Assembly: GCA_964106645.2 (NCBI GenBank)
Contig: OZ067041.1
Source: Podarcis pityusensis
Lineage: Eukaryota
DNA: 64,000 nt
Direction: 5' to 3' (one strand)
Positions 48,952-60,900 of the stretch are shown piece after piece. The position numbers were made by a program. Each line of letters begins with the position of its first letter. The stretch's first letter is position 1.

Positions 48952-51900
48952 TTATTTATGTCCCGCCCTCCCCAGCCGAAGCTGGGCTCAGAGCGGCTAA
49001 CAGCAATAAAAGTAACACAGCATTCTAAAATCAGTATTCTAAAATCAATTCAAAGTCAAATGGCAACCACTGGGCCAGAGTTCTACGAGGATCAGCAAAG
49101 GAGAGGGTCAGACTGTGCCTTGCAGAAGATGTCAAGTCCCGCAGGGCCCTAGTCTCTTGTGGCAGAGCGTTCCACCAGATCAGGGCCACAGCCAAAAAAG
49201 CCCTGGCTCTGGTTGAGGCCAGCCTAACCTCTCTGTGGCTTGGGACCTCTAAAATGTTTTTATTTGAAGACTGTAAAGTCCTCCGTGGGACATACCAGGA
49301 GAGGCGGTCCTGTAGGTACGAGGGTCCTAGGCTGTATAGGGCTTTAAAGGTTAAAACCAGCACCTTAAACCTGATCCTGTACTCCACCGGGAGCCAGCGC
49401 AGCTGGTATAGCACCGGGTGAATGTGATCCCGCGGCAAGGACCCCGTAAGGAGTCTCGCCGCAGCATTCTGCACCCACTGAATTTCTGTAGCTGCAGCAC
49501 CAATTAAAGGGCTTCAAAGGCTTCATGTTTTTCAGAAAGACCCAGACATTGGATTAACGGGACTAGGAAAAGAGAAAGGTGTTGGAGGTTGTGCCACAAT
49601 GGGAGAGGGCCCTTTGCTGTGACTATGGACTTCAATAACAACAACAACAATAAATCACAACATGGAAGATGACCTCATTCAAAGAGCTAAGGATCCTTCA
49701 AGAAGCATCATGGGTAAAATACCAATGCAATTTGTCTCCCCTTTGCTCAAAACTCTGTTCTGGCGCAGGCATCTCTTTTACGCCTCTGGGGTAAGGAAAT
49801 GACCACCCTATCAGCTCGCACGATCTTACAGACGTCCCATCTGCGGGGAAGGACGTTGGCCTTAAATAGAAAGGCGGACAGATGCGAGACAGAGATGATG
49901 GTCAGCAAAGATACCAGCATGGTGAACAGCTTAAATGGGAACAGCTGGACATAGGCCCCGTCAACCAGAGAGCATCCTGGGTAATGGATGACCGGGGGGA
50001 TGTTCAGGGCGGGCTCCCCCGCCAAGAGGCGCAGGAGAAGGCCCAAGAAGAACCCGGCGGCGGAGCCGTAAGTGTTGGTGTTGCGAATGAAGAGGACGCA
50101 GCAGAGCTGGGGGAAGAGGAGAGCGTAGACGAGTTCTCCACTCAGGAACCAGAGGTCATAAATGGAATGGGCATAAAAAGCTAGACCTGCGGACATCATC
50201 CCAAAGATCACCATGGACATTCTCATCGCCCATAGCACTTCTTCCTCCGACGCCTGGAAATAAAGAAATAGGTGTTTTATTATTTGTTTAGGTGCTATTA
50301 CATTTCTATGCCGCTGTGGAGGTAACGCTCCGCTTGTGCTGAGGCACACCTTGCACCTGGCAGGCAACAGCGTGCCCAGGAGCCTTGCGCCCACGCTCCC
50401 TGAACTTGTGCCTCTTGGCTAGCAAACAGGGGGTTTCCCCTGACCGTTTGTCTTCTTAAAGATTTGGTCACTCGACATAACGCTTGGCTGGAGCATGACC
50501 AGGGACGCAGTTGTAATCAAGTACAGTGCTACCTCAGGTTAAGTACTTACCGTATTTTTTGCACCATAACACTCACTTTTTTCCTCCTAGAAAGTAAGGG
50601 TGCGTGTTATGGAGGGAATGCCTACGGGTGGCATGCCTACGGATTTTCCTCCTCTAAAAACTACGTGCGTGTTATTGTCGGGTGCGTGTTATAGAGCGAA
50701 AAATACAGTAATTCGTTCCGGAGGTCCGTACTTAACCTGAAACTGTTCTTAACCTGAAGCACCACTTTAGCTAATGGGGCCTCCTGCTGCCGTCGTGCTG
50801 CCGGAGCATGATTTTTGTTCTCATCCTGAAGCAAAGTTCTTAATCTGAAGCACTATTTCTGGGTTAGCGGAGTCTGTAACCTGAAGTGTATGTAACCTGA
50901 GGTACCACTGTATCGGGGAACATTTTAGGGAAACACCTGCTAACACGTGTATTTGATAACGCTGGAAATGTGCTTAGATGGAAATACGTCATGTTCAGAG
51001 TGGTTTCACTACTGATTCCAATTGTTGACTTCTGCTAGTAAAAAGAGGCTCTGCGAAGCTTGCTCTTCAGCTTGCTCACACACAGCTCCCTGTATCCAAC
51101 CTCCTGCCATCCTCCGTTATTCTTACAGCCGCCTTTCCTCCAACGAATTCAAGGTGGTGTGCATGATTCTCCTCTCCATTTTACCCATACAACAACCCTT
51201 TGAGGTAGGCTGGGGGCCGAGACGTGGCGACTGGCCCACCCAGGGAGCTTCATAGCTGAGTTCAGGTGGGCTGCTAGGGCCTAAACACAATTACACTAAG
51301 CTGGGTAACTTTTATCAATATCACTTATTATTACAGTGGTACCTCGAGTTACAAACGCCTCAGCTTACAAACACTTCAGGTTACAAACTCCGCTAACCTG
51401 GAAGAGTTACCTCGAGTTGAGAACTTTGCGAATGGAAATCGTGTGCCGGCGGCACAGTGGCAGCAAGAGGCTTCATTAGCGAAAGCACGCCTCTCGTTAA
51501 GAACAGTTTCAGGTTAAGAACGGACCTCCGGTAACAAATTAAGTTCGTAACTAGAGGTACCACTGTATTATTATTTAAATTGTCTTTCTGCGATTTGGGG
51601 TGGCTTTGAACCCTGTTGTTACTGGTTCCTGGAAATTCCCGGAAACCCCTTAAATTAAGAATTTTATTTCGTTTTAAAAGAAAGGTCTCTGCGATATTCT
51701 TTCTGGTAAAGTCAACTGCTTACCGCAAACCCCAAGAGCCGTTTTAGCTAATGAGATAATGAGATGAGGAGCCTTGCAATATATTTTACGAAATGTTACA
51801 AATCTATTTCCTATGATCATTCTGAGTGGCGTAATTCTGTGTAACTACTGGCTTCCTCTCTTTAAATTTTATTATGTTCCAGTGCATATTTCTGTTGTGG

Positions 51901-57900: not shown

Positions 57901-60900
57901 NNNNNNNNNNNNNNNNNNNNNNNNNNNNNNNNNAGACACCAGATCTTTTGAAACAAAAAAACCCGGCAATTACATTTTATAGATATTTGTTATTAATAAA
58001 TAAGTTTGATATGCAGACTGTAAGAAACAACTGGAAATAAGATATGGATGTTCCTATAGACCAGGTAGACAGTGTGACAGTGTTTTAGTTTCCATAGCAA
58101 AGGCACCGATGGATCTTAAACTAAGGCTTACACAACAGAAAATAATATTTAGAATCTATTGGACTCCATTAGTTTTGCATAGAAAAGGACTGTTGAACGC
58201 AGCTCCTTGTTGGAGGATAATGCCTCTTGGAAACATGGTGTTCTTACAGTGTCCTATTGCCACTGAGTTTTCGGTGAAAGTTTTGAACTGTGTAAATACA
58301 ACTGTATGGAAAAACTTAAAATATTCAGAGGGAAATATTCTTTTGAATTATACACTTAATATATGGAAGTTGACAAGTGGACAGACAACAAAAATTGATT
58401 CTCTGTGTTCTAAGTATGCCCAAAAGACAGATATTGATGAATTGGAAAAACAAAAATCTGGTCCTCTTTAATCAATGGATTGAAGACATGACAGCACTCA
58501 CAACATATGAACGGATTGCATTTATAGATGCAGGCTTTGTTTGGATAAATATATTGATTTTTGGAACAAGTGTATACAGAATATAGCAGGTTATTAATCA
58601 TATAAGATACATATATAAAATTTTGTATAAATGAAAAACTTTAAAATATTGATTAATAAAAAAAACTTTGGAAAGGAAGTGCTTTAAAATTTAAAAAACT
58701 GCTATATTAGTCTATATTGCACCTTCTTCTTTCTCCCCCCCCCCCCCACATTATTTTGTATAACTGGAAAAAGAAACTTTGAAATATAAATAAATAAATA
58801 AGCTTGGGAAAGAAGTGCTTTAAAATAAATCAGCTGCAAAAAAAATTCTAGACCTAAGACTCAGATGCAGTAGTTCAGTGGTAGAATACTCCCTTTGCAT
58901 TCAGAAGGTCTCATGCTTCATCTGCAACATCTCCCCGTTAACGCTGGGAAAGACCACGGACATAAAAACGCACACACAAACTAATACCCAAACACAAAAA
59001 CTCTGACTTCCCCCTTCTGAATTTTGGCATTTTCCCGGGCCACTTAATCACCCAGCCACATTTCTGGACCCTGCCTAGACATCAGGTTAGTTCCTTTTAA
59101 AAATTGGCAATCCTGTCTCATGACAAAGCCCATCTATAACATCATGATGCCTCACACCATGAGTCATTAGAATTGTAAGTTGGAATCATATAATCCAACC
59201 CCTTGCAATGCAGGAATCTCAACTAAAGCATCCATGACAGATGGCCACCCAACCTCTGCTTAGAAACCTCCAAGGAAGGAGAATCCACAACCTCCTTGGT
59301 TTTTGGGAAATTGGTACTTACCGGTAGCGGTGAACAGTCCAAGGCAAAAACCCATTTTCCTGTTTCCCACCATGGCCACTTCACTGGGCTTCCTGCTTTT
59401 CAGCTTCTTGGCTTTCCAGGAAGCCCATATTCCAGTTGCTAAAGTAACAACATAAAAGGCAACCAGGGCCACCAAGCCGCTTGTGCTCAAAGCCATCTTC
59501 TCCAGCTATCAGGAGATGTGAGTTTCTGGCAGTGGAGCCAAGTTCAAGCAGCAAAACGCCTGTGTCTTGTCAGACGAACCTTCTGCAAGCTCTTCCACTG
59601 GCGAACTGTTGCTATCTGAAGGACTAACTTGGGGTGTGCGCAAAGTGGGAGCAGAGCAGTTTATGACGTTGGAGTAGGACCCCGCCTATCTCTCTCTCAA
59701 CAGACTAAACAATCTCTGCGTGTGTGTCCTTCAATACCAGGAAAAAATGAGAGATTAATGGAACAAACAAAAAATATCCAGCATAGGGATTGTGGATACC
59801 AAGTGAGGTCTTGGAGCAATGATTCTTAAAGGGTGTTGCGCATCACACTGGATGGCAAGCGTGGCAGGAAGATTCAAGGACAATCGAAGAAACTTTTAAA
59901 CATGTCAGCGTACAGCACAGAATACTATCAAGTTCAGAAAAGAGAAATGCTTCTTTGAGTTGATGAGATGTGAGTGTCTCAGAATAGAGCTAACATACCA
60001 TATTTTCCCGTGTATAAGACGCCCCCATGTATAAGACGTCCCCTCTTTTTAGGGACTCCAAATTGAGAAAATGGGGGGAGATTGCCCAGAGTTGTTGAGC
60101 TTTTTTGGGGGGTGCTGAAAACCGCTCACCTGCAGGACCACCACAGCCAATTGCACGCACATCAACAAAGCCACCAATCTTTGGCACGCAAGCAGAAAGC
60201 AAGCGCCAATCGCCCTATTGCCACAACAGCCAATAGCCTGCAGAACTTGCCGCACCAGCCAATCACCCGCAAATACGCCGTTGACAATCTCCTGCTTGCG
60301 GCAGCCACCAAACGCCCGTCCCACCTCTCCACTACCCATGTATAAGAGGACCCAAAAATTGTAGCATAATTTTAAAATAAAATAACCTCGTCTTATACAC
60401 GGAAAAATACGGTAAATGAGATTACCTGGCAAAAGCAAGCTCATTGAGTTTGTAGGCATACTTAAGGTACATTTTATGCAAGAGGCTGGTTTGCAATTAT
60501 ATTTTGGGAGTGATTTATGTTCTTGTGCAGCTGCATTGTGCTATACTTTCTGGATGCCCCATTTTAAAGTAGTTGTGTTCTGTGTTAATTGTGGTGGCAA
60601 GGTGGCAGCGCTGGGGTGACAGCGGGGGCAAGGAGGGGGCCTGGATCTGTGGGCAGTGGCGGGGAGGGGGGATGTTTTGCTTACAGCAGCAAAACATCCT
60701 GGGCCGCCCATTATGCAGAAGGTTCCAGGTTCAGCTCCTGTCTGAAGCCCTGGTGATCCACTGCCAACGATTGTGGGAAATACTGAGATATGGTGATCTA
60801 ACTTGGTGAAAGGCAGCGTCCTACATCATTCCATTTTAGAGCTCATTTCTCCTCATATACACATTGTTGCAAACCATTTCTCCGATATGATGCATGTTAA

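What the first reader, a model, noticed from the sequence alone, without database searches (positions are those of the whole stretch)
49747..59496. Intact, divergent CHT1/SLC5A7-like transporter paralogue next to VSTM5
Seen: eight phase-compatible exons give an unbroken 538-aa SSS transporter with CHT1-like motifs. Known: human SLC5A7 lies on chromosome 2, and in the human 11q21 block VSTM5 is followed by HEPHL1. Inference: this is a second CHT-family gene retained in reptiles and lost or absent in mammals, with unknown substrate and function.
[Added by the scan's program, not by the reader: the finding's places include an assembly gap (unread letters, written N; its length is only estimated) at 57794 to 57933. 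Whether the letters on both sides are continuous or in frame is not known: test that first.]
Basis: partly seen in the sequence, partly recalled or inferred. Interest (0 to 1): 0.75.

Follow-up and report, generated by a model that had tools for sequence, protein, structure and literature searches.

The report
Lizard's second choline-transporter-like gene
This is an intact lizard copy of an old, barely studied sister gene of the nerve-cell choline transporter; fishes, amphibians, reptiles and birds carry it and genome databases already list it, so the gene is real but not a new discovery.

Summary
Eight minus-strand exons (49747-59496) have AG/GT borders and compatible phases, and sum to 538 codons plus a stop. 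The only N run (57794-57933) lies inside intron 1. Exons 1 and 2 abut exactly in 8 of 8 relatives, so no coding sequence is missing. Each exon matches solved human CHT1 in order, covering residues 1-518.

The gene is not the SLC5A7 orthologue. Summed over exons it is 95% identical to the Podarcis muralis 'CHT1-like' protein and 50% identical to Podarcis canonical CHT1. An AU test rejects placing it with canonical SLC5A7 (p = 2.6e-07). The 'like' clade runs from sharks to birds. No mammal appeared in the lists I saw.

Na+ sites, translocation residues and five of six choline-cage residues are kept. G66A, Y91F, S243D, L246Y, Y407F and a short tail set it apart.

The likeliest function is a Na+/Cl-–coupled choline-type transporter, untested. 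Pipelines already annotate the gene in many species. I found no paper that characterises it.

The parts
59322..59496 (-). Coding exon 1 (Met1 to Thr58 plus the first base of codon 59). ATG at 59496 in context GAGAAGATGG.
   Evidence: Matches human CHT1 residues 1-59 at E 3.2e-09. 58/58 identical to Podarcis muralis 'like' P0001.
57794..57933 (.). Assembly gap (140 N) inside intron 1. It interrupts no coding sequence.
   Evidence: Exon 1 and exon 2 matches abut in 8 of 8 comparison proteins. The split codon corresponds to A60.
56653..56766 (-). Coding exon 2. Holds W62, the VGGAY loop (human VGGGY), Y67, E73 and F at position 91.
   Evidence: Human CHT1 61-96 at E 2.4e-12. Residue roles from PMC11589582.
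55553..55708 (-). Coding exon 3. Holds W141 (cage and Cl- contact).
   Evidence: Human CHT1 99-148 at E 1.5e-15.
54757..54905 (-). Coding exon 4. Holds D188 (Na3 site).
   Evidence: Human CHT1 151-198 at E 9.3e-08. Pfam SSF E 2.6e-4, 20.4 bits, below the 22.8 cut-off.
54082..54225 (-). Coding exon 5. Least conserved exon. Holds D243, Y246 and L247 (vestibule / HC-3 contact positions).
   Evidence: Human CHT1 200-247 at E 6.9e-08.
53117..53270 (-). Coding exon 6. Holds W254, Q259, R260 and S263.
   Evidence: Human CHT1 249-298 at E 5.2e-15. Residue roles.
52632..52849 (-). Coding exon 7. Holds A343, S346, S347 (Na2) and D349, S350 (Na3).
   Evidence: Human CHT1 300-371 at E 9e-24. Pfam SSF E 2.3e-5, 23.9 bits, above the cut-off.
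49747..50253 (-). Coding exon 8 with the TGA stop. Holds W406 and F407, the last TM helices, and a tail of only 22 residues past the human-518 equivalent.
   Evidence: Human CHT1 372-518 at E 1.8e-40. Placed in the squamate 'like' clade.
49259..49264 (-). First AATAAA after the stop (485 nt downstream). A consensus match only.
   Evidence: It lies in repeat-like sequence and is weak evidence.
39070..39420 (-). Ig V-set exon of the downstream neighbour gene, in the position of VSTM5. Context for synteny.
   Evidence: Pfam V-set E 8.1e-5, below the cut-off. 61% identical over 117 aa to the Ig part of fusion model P0124, E 6e-46. tblastn mapping.
36643..36780 (-). Transmembrane exon of the same neighbour gene.
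   Evidence: tblastn with P0124 residues 483-528, 72% identity, E 7e-17.

Best explanation
The locus is the intact lizard orthologue of an ancient sister gene of SLC5A7. [quoted passage not shown] The duplication that made it predates the last common ancestor of jawed vertebrates.

The protein most likely works as CHT1 does. It would be a 13-helix LeuT-fold symporter that uses two Na+ ions (Na2 and Na3 sites) and probably one Cl- ion to carry choline, or a close quaternary-ammonium relative, held in a cage of aromatic side chains.

It differs from CHT1 around the outer vestibule and the pocket (G66A, Y91F, S243D, L246Y, Y407F). It also lacks about 40 residues of the cytoplasmic tail that helps CHT1 reach the cell surface. 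I therefore expect different affinity, inhibitor sensitivity and trafficking, and possibly use in other tissues.

Shown here: the gene structure, paralogy, conservation of the functional residues, and the neighbouring genes.
Inferred: ion coupling, substrate, trafficking and tissue.

My sub-estimates: distinct paralogue 0.95; functional gene 0.9; Na+-coupled 0.8; choline as physiological substrate about 0.5.
For: Structure: 8 exons, 7 GT-AG introns and an open 538-codon frame. The exons tile human CHT1 residues 1-518 with only two 1-residue indels.

Paralogy:
- Per-exon identity sums are 508/534 to Podarcis 'like', 425/534 to Rhineura 'like', 385/534 to Rhea 'like', 340/534 to Xenopus 'like', and 265/534 to Podarcis canonical.
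- Careful ML tree of 60 rows: canonical clade 100/99, all 'like' 100/100, window exon 8 with Podarcis 'like' 100/99.
- The AU test rejects the canonical placement at p 2.6e-07.
- Both clades hold chimaera/shark, ray-finned fish, coelacanth, amphibian and sauropsid rows.

Constraint:
- R47, A60, W62, G64, G65, W141, D188, Q259, R260, A343, S346, S347, D349 and S350 are invariant in 54 of 54 aligned proteins (20 canonical, 16 tetrapod 'like', 18 fish 'like'). All are present in the window.
- Their roles come from PMC11589582 (passages) and bioRxiv 10.1101/2025.09.30.678764 (passages).
- That preprint reports that a bacterial homologue only 34-38% identical to CHT1 is still a Na+-dependent, HC-3-inhibited choline transporter. 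So 50% identity with a kept cage is compatible with choline transport.

Clade signature: the window carries A66, F91, D243, Y246 and F407. These are fixed in 15-16 of 16 tetrapod 'like' proteins and in 0-1 of 20 canonical ones.

Tail: 22 residues past the position-518 equivalent, against 62 in human CHT1. The group medians after reference position 516 are 28.5 and 62.

Synteny: a turtle-type fused gene model, P0124, joins the transporter to the same Ig gene in the same order and strand.

Transcription elsewhere: P0107, a full 548-aa orthologue, sits on a 1974-nt contig. A gene with introns fits there only as spliced RNA. This is my inference.
Against: - There are no expression data and no transport assay for this gene in any species in the papers I could search.
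- Y91F removes a hydroxyl in the cage. G66A alters the Cl- loop. D243, Y246 and F407 line the vestibule. Substrate or ion dependence could differ.
- The 'like' clade changes about twice as fast as the canonical one (Podarcis-Xenopus identity 0.65 against 0.83).
- Per-exon Pfam support is thin. SSF passes its cut-off in 1 of 8 exons, falls just under in 1, and gives no hit in 6. Short exons explain this.
- Exon 1 is tied to the rest across an assembly gap.
- No dN/dS could be computed, because no orthologous DNA was on hand.
- Absence from mammals rests on lists cut at 120 rows.
- Full-length analyses used database orthologues as stand-ins, because the window's exons were never joined.
Confidence: 0.6

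Rival explanations
1. Same fold and Na+ coupling, but the physiological substrate is not choline. It could be another small cation or zwitterion such as betaine, carnitine or another methylated amine. The paralogue would then serve nutrient or osmolyte uptake outside the cholinergic system.
For: Clade-fixed changes sit at the cage and the vestibule (Y91F, G66A, L246Y, Y407F, Asp at 243). PMC11589582 maps these positions to choline or HC-3 contacts. Fish members go further, with W254Y in 11 of 18 and Y67F in 10 of 18. The short tail differs from the neuronal trafficking tail. A stingray kidney transcriptome lists a 'choline transporter 1-like' contig at 0.9-4.6 TPM (PMC9396271, one table passage), but its clade is unknown.
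Against: In the window, five of six cage residues are identical and the sixth stays aromatic. The Na2, Na3 and translocation residues are invariant. A far more distant bacterial homologue still carries choline. No assay supports any other substrate.
Confidence: 0.3
2. The gene is a silent or decaying copy in this species. The frame would be open by chance or the loss of function recent.
For: No expression evidence for this species. Evolution is faster than in canonical CHT1.
Against: The frame is open for 538 codons and all 14 splice sites are canonical. Every invariant functional residue is kept. The gene is 95% identical to the Podarcis orthologue summed over exons. The clade is kept from sharks to birds.
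Confidence: 0.05
3. The model is a scaffolding artefact. Exon 1, on the far side of the N gap, would belong to another copy or locus.
For: The gap separates exon 1 from exons 2-8, and its true length is unknown. A dispersed repeat lies in the gap's left flank, with an 88% copy at 59996-60087.
Against: Exon 1 is on the right strand and in the right order. Its phase completes the Ala codon with exon 2. It is 58/58 identical to the N-terminus of the Podarcis 'like' protein, against 25/58 to canonical.
Confidence: 0.03
4. It is the canonical SLC5A7 orthologue moved next to VSTM5.
For: None beyond family membership.
Against: About 50% identity to lacertid canonical CHT1 in every exon. Close relatives have a separate 575-aa canonical gene. 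The AU test gives p 2.6e-07.
Confidence: 0.01

Closest known systems
[quoted passage not shown] Podarcis muralis A0A670IKM1 (P0001) and Rhineura floridana (P0002)
   Same: Orthologues. Summed per-exon identity is 95% and 80%. They share the length class (533-553 aa), the signature residues and the squamate clade. A turtle-type model shows the same neighbour gene.
   Different: The Podarcis database model ends in a different 42-residue tail. That tail maps to 49354-49479 in the window, inside repeat-like sequence. The window's read-through ending resembles the Rhineura and Hemicordylus models.
Canonical SLC5A7 / CHT1 (human structures 8j74, 9bfi; lacertid proteins P0310, P0325)
   Same: Collinear over residues 1-518. 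W62, Y67, W141, W254, W406, the Na2 and Na3 sites and the translocation residues are kept. Both have eight coding exons; the human count is recalled and was not checked here.
   Different: Only about 50% identical and in a separate clade. Carries G66A, Y91F, S243D, L246Y and Y407F. The tail is about 40 residues shorter. It lies beside the V-set gene, not at the SLC5A7 locus.
Fish and shark 'CHT1-like' genes (e.g. Polypterus P0122, Lepisosteus P0394/P0400, Callorhinchus P0435, Latimeria P0423)
   Same: The same paralogue clade, with 100/100 support, and the same short tail.
   Different: 51% identical to the window over exons for Polypterus. Ray-finned fishes carry several copies per genome. 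The pocket is more altered, with W254Y in 11/18 and Y67F in 10/18.
Bacterial sfCHT of Salimicrobium flavidum (PDB 9rws)
   Same: Same family. The window's exons 2, 3, 4, 6, 7 and 8 hit it at E 2e-05 to 4e-25. The aromatic cage is kept, and it is reported as a Na+-dependent choline carrier.
   Different: Much more distant, at 34-38% identity to CHT1 according to the preprint.

Membership tests
Sodium:solute symporter superfamily (Pfam SSF, PF00474; SLC5) | Match to the SSF profile | tested here: met
   Tested exon by exon. Exon 7 scores 23.9 bits (cut-off 22.8) and exon 4 scores 20.4 bits. Six exons give no SSF hit. The full-length orthologues carry PF00474 as a precomputed domain.
CHT / SLC5A7 family in the wide sense | Collinear similarity to solved CHT1 along the whole transport core | tested here: met
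   The eight exons match human CHT1 residues 1-59, 61-96, 99-148, 151-198, 200-247, 249-298, 300-371 and 372-518, at E 3e-09 to 2e-40.
CHT / SLC5A7 family in the wide sense | Aromatic choline cage W62, Y67, Y91, W141, W254, W406 | tested here: met
   Five are identical. Position 91 is Phe, so it stays aromatic but loses the hydroxyl. Roles come from PMC11589582.
CHT / SLC5A7 family in the wide sense | Na2 (S346, S347; backbone of A60, V63, A343) and Na3 (D188, D349, S350) sites | tested here: met
   All are present in the window. All except V63 are invariant in 54/54 relatives; position 63 is Val or Ile.
CHT / SLC5A7 family in the wide sense | Cl- loop 63-VGGGY-67 | tested here: inconclusive
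   The window has VGGAY, as do 15 of 16 tetrapod 'like' proteins. Cl- is held by backbone nitrogens, so Ala may or may not matter.
CHT / SLC5A7 family in the wide sense | Na+/Cl--dependent, HC-3-sensitive choline uptake | not testable with these tools
   Needs an uptake assay.
Canonical SLC5A7 orthologue group | Groups with canonical vertebrate CHT1 in a tree | tested here: not met
   The clades are separate at 100/99 and 100/100. The AU test gives p 2.6e-07.
Canonical SLC5A7 orthologue group | Cytoplasmic tail of about 62 residues after TM12 | tested here: not met
   22 residues past the 518 equivalent. The canonical median is 62 and the tetrapod 'like' median is 28.5.
Gnathostome 'CHT1-like' paralogue clade | Placement inside the clade | tested here: met
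   Exon 8 is sister to Podarcis 'like' at 100/99, within squamates at 100/100. All eight exons are nearest to 'like' proteins.
Gnathostome 'CHT1-like' paralogue clade | Tetrapod signature A66, F91, D243, Y246, F407 | tested here: met
   All five are present in the window. Each is fixed in 15-16 of 16 tetrapod 'like' proteins.
Gnathostome 'CHT1-like' paralogue clade | Lies upstream of the V-set (VSTM5-position) gene on the same strand | tested here: met
   Seen in the window. The same order appears in fusion model P0124, whose transporter part is 98% identical to Malaclemys 'like'. Other species were not testable.

The most novel reading that the evidence does not exclude
Jawed vertebrates ancestrally had two choline-type SLC5 carriers. 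The second one ('CHT2') has a remodelled pocket and vestibule and a short tail. It has a job of its own, either a different substrate or non-neuronal choline uptake, and mammals lost it. It may have arisen by a duplication within one chromosome rather than by whole-genome duplication. The reason is that the two genes sit on a contig of the same length, taken to be the same chromosome, in at least 24 species from sturgeon and coelacanth to lizards.
Probability: 0.3. Interest if true: 0.55.

Novelty: already known. Interest (0 to 1): 0.3.

Why it matters
Work on high-affinity choline uptake treats CHT1 as the only vertebrate carrier of its kind. A second, conserved family member in all non-mammalian jawed vertebrates means three things.

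1. Chicken, frog, lizard and fish models may have a choline-type uptake route that mouse and human lack.
2. The fixed changes at positions 66, 91, 243, 246 and 407 are a natural mutagenesis set for CHT1 selectivity and hemicholinium binding.
3. Loss in mammals, if confirmed, would be a clean case of transporter loss to explain.

For this window alone the finding is an ordinary, already catalogued gene.

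Tried and rejected
- **Pfam on single exons.** Mostly blank because the exons are short. Exon 1 gave only three weak, unrelated sub-threshold hits.
- **Naming the unnamed representatives.** The listing of cluster members could not be run (database switched off). The two remaining named searches gave names for P0122 and P0123 instead.
- **Confirming the name VSTM5.** The atlas search of the Ig exon returned only generic V-set clusters, and Pfam V-set is below its cut-off. 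The name stays an inference from gene order.
- **A TM4SF gene in the window.** Bird fusion models P0039 and P0062 suggested one. Their TM4SF halves gave no tblastn match at E <= 1e-3. If present, it lies beyond 64 kb.
- **P0124 as a possible mammalian copy.** In one search it sat as sister to sauropsids at 56/34 support. This was rejected: residues 1-333 are 98% identical to the turtle Malaclemys protein.
- **Sarcophilus '1-like' LOW QUALITY proteins as mammalian members.** P0338 was placed in the tree and groups with koala canonical CHT1 at 100/99. P0349 was not placed in a tree; it is 81% identical to the canonical query.
- **Literature aliases.**
  - 'choline transporter 1-like': 3 papers.
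  - slc5a7b: 1 paper.
  - slc5a7l / slc5a7.2 / slc5a7-like / cht1-like: 3 papers. I read the clownfish preprint. The other two (a Clytia cell atlas and a Parkinson's-disease review) I saw only in the listing.
  - SLC5A7 + VSTM5: 1 paper, seen in the listing only.
  - slc5a7 + paralog + vertebrate + duplication: 14 papers, 12 listed.
  - An earlier alias search was swamped by 'cht2' chitinase papers (446 hits, 25 seen).
  - PMC9605692 had no occurrence in its main text.
- **Not attempted.** dN/dS (no orthologous DNA on hand), structure prediction, complex prediction, and any search or fold of a joined protein.

Full report
**What is in the sequence**

Stop-to-stop frames on the minus strand between 49.7 and 59.5 kb hold eight blocks with transporter-like sequence. 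Reading that strand gives AG acceptors and GT donors at all seven introns. The phases are 1,1,1,0,0,1,0 and fit across every junction.

The exons are 59322-59496, 56653-56766, 55553-55708, 54757-54905, 54082-54225, 53117-53270, 52632-52849 and 49747-50253. Their lengths add up to 1617 nt, which is 538 codons plus TGA. The ATG at 59496 sits in the context GAGAAGATGG, with in-frame stops just upstream.

Every search with window sequence was done exon by exon. Full-length analyses used database orthologues as stand-ins. What a search or fold of the joined 538-aa protein would show therefore remains unchecked.

**The assembly gap**

The window has one N run, 57794-57933. It lies in intron 1, 1388 nt from the exon 1 donor and 1027 nt from the exon 2 acceptor.

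Exon 1 ends with a lone G and exon 2 starts with CC. The resulting Ala is A60 of human CHT1. Exon 1 aligns to human residues 1-59 and exon 2 to residues 61-96. In 8 of 8 comparison proteins (five 'like', three canonical) the exon 1 match ends exactly one residue before the exon 2 match starts.

So nothing coding is missing. What remains open is the true intron length and the scaffold join itself. In favour of the join, exon 1 is 58/58 identical to the Podarcis 'like' N-terminus against 25/58 for canonical CHT1.

**Family**

Each exon alone finds solved human CHT1, in order, covering residues 1-518. E-values run from 3.2e-09 to 1.8e-40.

Pfam on single exons is weak. SSF scores above its cut-off for exon 7, just below for exon 4, and gives nothing for the other six. 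I put this down to exon length.

**Which CHT gene**

A search of the large protein set with exon 8 alone (longer proteins allowed) gave 158 proteins at E <= 1e-10, with 120 listed. Of these, 119 are named, and all are squamate, turtle, crocodilian, bird or amphibian entries of 311-1090 aa. [quoted passage not shown] The best is Podarcis muralis A0A670IKM1 at 92% identity.

An exhaustive search of 50%-identity representatives with the Rhineura orthologue gave 333 proteins at E <= 1e-30. Two further named searches followed.
- The canonical representative P0123 (Sapajus apella) returned canonical CHT1 of 575-581 aa from mammals to sharks. These include Podarcis muralis, P. raffonei, Zootoca vivipara, Rhineura, Hemicordylus and Anolis.
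- The Polypterus 'like' representative returned 'like' proteins of bichirs, gar, bowfin, sturgeon, teleosts, sharks, rays, chimaera and coelacanth.

Exon by exon, the window matches as follows:

| Comparison protein | Identical residues |
|---|---|
| Podarcis 'like' | 508/534 |
| Rhineura 'like' | 425/534 |
| Rhea 'like' | 385/534 |
| Xenopus 'like' | 340/534 |
| Polypterus 'like' | 275/534 |
| Podarcis canonical | 265/534 |
| Zootoca canonical | 259/534 |
| Sapajus canonical | 263/534 |

No exon prefers the canonical form, so the model is not a chimaera.

**Trees**

I built three trees.
- A FastTree of 65 rows.
- A quick IQ-TREE of 61 rows.
- A careful IQ-TREE of 60 rows with LG+G4. For this one I dropped the long-branched unnamed rows P0125, P0131, P0138 and P0143, and added P0338, P0121 and P0124.

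All three agree. In the careful tree the canonical clade has 100/99 support, the whole 'like' clade 100/100 and the tetrapod 'like' clade 100/100. The window's exon 8 joins Podarcis 'like' at 100/99. Both big clades contain cartilaginous fishes, ray-finned fishes, coelacanth, amphibians and sauropsids, so the duplication is older than the jawed-vertebrate ancestor.

The AU test of 'canonical plus window exon 8' loses 213.9 log-likelihood units (p 2.6e-07). The outgroup rows are unnamed representatives, and the root branch is only 86/45.

**Mammals**

- No mammal appears among the named rows (119) or (117; the other rows are fish, sharks, coelacanth, amphibians, sauropsids and one mollusc).
- The 14 mammalian rows all appear in the canonical list at 81-100% identity to the canonical query. 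Of these, only three (Sapajus, koala and Tasmanian-devil P0338) were placed in a tree, and all three fall in the canonical clade.
- P0338, one of two Tasmanian devil '1-like' low-quality entries, groups with koala canonical CHT1.
- An unnamed fused model, P0124, first fell where a mammal would. Its transporter part is 98% identical to the turtle Malaclemys protein.
- The human 11q14.3-q21 gene list in PMC6454239 (one passage seen) runs '... SNORD5 ... TAF1D, C11orf54, MED17, VSTM5, HEPHL1, PANX1', with no transporter between VSTM5 and HEPHL1.

This fits loss in mammals. The lists were cut at 120 rows and no mammalian genome was searched, so it is not proof.

**Neighbours**

| Window position | Strand | Feature | Evidence |
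|---|---|---|---|
| 1110-1185 | - | SNORD5 | 64.4 bits, |
| 14867-16369 | + | DUF1907 exons (C11orf54 family) | E 8e-21 and 5e-14, |
| 22566-22808 | + | MED17 exon | E 3e-37 to solved Mediator subunit 17, |
| about 39070-39420 and 36643-36780 | - | Ig V-set exon and TM exon | |
| 49747-59496 | - | The transporter | |

This is the order of the human list. That order is my only ground for calling the Ig gene VSTM5, because the atlas search gave generic V-set clusters only.

HEPHL1 is not in the window. Upstream of the transporter I saw only repeats.

P0124 fuses transporter exons to the same Ig and TM exons, in the same order and strand. The adjacency therefore also holds in a turtle lineage.

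Bird models P0039 and P0062 fuse a TM4SF domain upstream of the transporter. The chicken chromosome 1 study PMC6399517 (passages seen) lists HEPHL1, CP, HEPH, TM4SF1A, VSTM5, C11ORF54 and MED17, with no transporter. Birds thus probably have the order TM4SF1A, transporter, VSTM5. The gene was not in that 2018 gene list. Whether chicken itself has it I did not establish. Other galliforms do (Numida, Centrocercus, Colinus).

**How it probably works**

PMC11589582 (passages) defines these features of human CHT1:
- the choline cage: W62, Y67, Y91, W141, W254, W406;
- the Cl- loop 63-VGGGY-67;
- the Na2 site: S346 and S347, plus the backbone of A60, V63 and A343;
- the Na3 site: D188, D349 and S350;
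- HC-3 contacts: E73, S243, L246, L247, W406 and Y407;
- a disordered tail, residues 519-580, needed for surface delivery.

The preprint 10.1101/2025.09.30.678764 (passages) adds R47, Q259, R260 and S263 on the exit path. It also reports that a bacterial homologue 34-38% identical to CHT1 is still a Na+-dependent, HC-3-sensitive choline carrier.

In the window all Na2, Na3 and exit-path residues are present, and so are W62, Y67, W141, W254, W406, E73 and L247. The changes are G66A, Y91F, S243D, L246Y and Y407F.

Across 54 aligned proteins, 14 of these positions never vary. The five changes are fixed in 15-16 of 16 tetrapod 'like' proteins. The tail is 22 residues past the 518 equivalent, against 62 in human CHT1.

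From this I infer a working Na+-coupled, probably Cl--assisted, carrier of choline or a close quaternary amine. I expect altered affinity, inhibitor binding and trafficking. None of this has been assayed.

The clade evolves about twice as fast as canonical CHT1 (for example 0.65 against 0.83 identity for Podarcis-Xenopus). Even so, it is kept from sharks to birds.

**What is in print**

I found no paper that defines or characterises this paralogue.
- ('choline transporter 1-like') gave 3 papers. Two were read as single passages: a stingray kidney table and a puffer candidate-gene list. One, on crustacean haemocytes, I saw in the listing only.
- (slc5a7l, slc5a7.2, slc5a7-like, cht1-like) gave 3 papers. 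One is a clownfish preprint that mentions down-regulated 'slc5a7-like' transporters. The other two I saw in the listing only.
- One search gave 1 paper (listing only), and one search gave 14 (12 listed).
- PMC9309457 (passages) uses SLC5A7 as the outgroup of the SLC5 family. It notes 'several co-orthologs of SLC5A7 in stickleback', places SLC5A7 on human chromosome 2, and calls its origin uncertain. Its supplementary trees, which I could not open, may show more.

**Verdict**

The gene is real and intact. It is a distinct paralogue sitting beside the V-set gene in the VSTM5 position. It belongs to an old clade that spans the jawed vertebrates and that annotation pipelines already list in many species. 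As a finding in this window it is ordinary.

The open points are function, tissue, proof of mammalian loss, and how the duplication arose.

Noticed in passing
related proteins (no window coordinates): The canonical and 'like' proteins of one species carry the same 'longest contig' length, taken to mean the same chromosome, in at least 24 species. Examples are Rhineura, Hemicordylus, Elgaria, Anolis sagrei, Tiliqua, Phrynosoma, Pituophis, Pelodiscus, Carettochelys, Macrochelys, Rhinatrema, Xenopus tropicalis, Bombina, Pleurodeles, Latimeria, Erpetoichthys and Huso. The lengths differ in at least 7 (Lepisosteus, Amia, Conger, Anguilla, Megalops, Chanos, Ascaphus). I counted by eye from the tables. 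This suggests old linkage of the two genes and perhaps a duplication within one chromosome. The distance between them is unknown.
   Followed up: partly
P0050/P0054 (Rhinatrema), P0069/P0116 (Geotrypetes), P0121; Conger P0428, P0430, P0434, P0440, P0450, P0467: Caecilians have two 'like' copies that form two separate clades, one of them with the unnamed P0121. Ray-finned fishes have several copies. Six Conger entries share one contig length, which suggests a tandem array.
   Followed up: partly
P0039 (Grus), P0062 (Colinus); window 59500-64000: Bird gene models fuse a TM4SF (PF05805) protein upstream of the transporter. The window has no TM4SF match. The chicken chromosome 1 gene list in PMC6399517 has TM4SF1A next to VSTM5 and no transporter.
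   Followed up: partly
window 49354-49479 (-): The last 42 residues of the Podarcis database model P0001 map here (86% identity), downstream of the stop used in my model and inside a repeat-like ORF (49031-49513, no Pfam hit). This is probably a spurious or alternative terminal exon. Rhineura and Hemicordylus models end like the window's read-through.
   Followed up: partly
window 1110-1185 (-): SNORD5 box C/D snoRNA, 64.4 bits against a gathering score of 55. It fits the human order SNORD5 ... TAF1D, C11orf54.
   Followed up: no
window 43222-43290 (-): A tRNA-like match (36.2 bits) between the V-set gene and the transporter. It could be a tRNA-derived SINE head or a tRNA gene. I did not run ARAGORN on it.
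   Followed up: no
window 61693-62723: Tandem array of a G+C-rich 118-bp unit, 8.7 copies, 96% matching. It is open in several frames, which explains the long low-complexity ORFs at 61454-63119.
   Followed up: no
window 7835-8320 (-), 37168-37677 (+), 45653-46000 (+), 60953-61339 (-): Four copies of one dispersed repeat that encodes a conserved peptide ('...RRIDxFELWCWRRLLRVPWTARRSN...'). The copy I scanned has no Pfam match.
   Followed up: no
fish 'like' proteins: In 11 of 18 fish and shark 'like' proteins cage residue W254 is Tyr, and in 10 of 18 Y67 is Phe. The pocket has drifted further there than in tetrapods.
   Followed up: partly
P0338, P0349 (Sarcophilus harrisii): Two 'LOW QUALITY ... 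1-like' entries on one contig are 83% and 81% identical to the canonical query. P0338 groups with koala canonical CHT1. This could be a marsupial duplication or an assembly artefact. It is not the paralogue studied here.
   Followed up: partly
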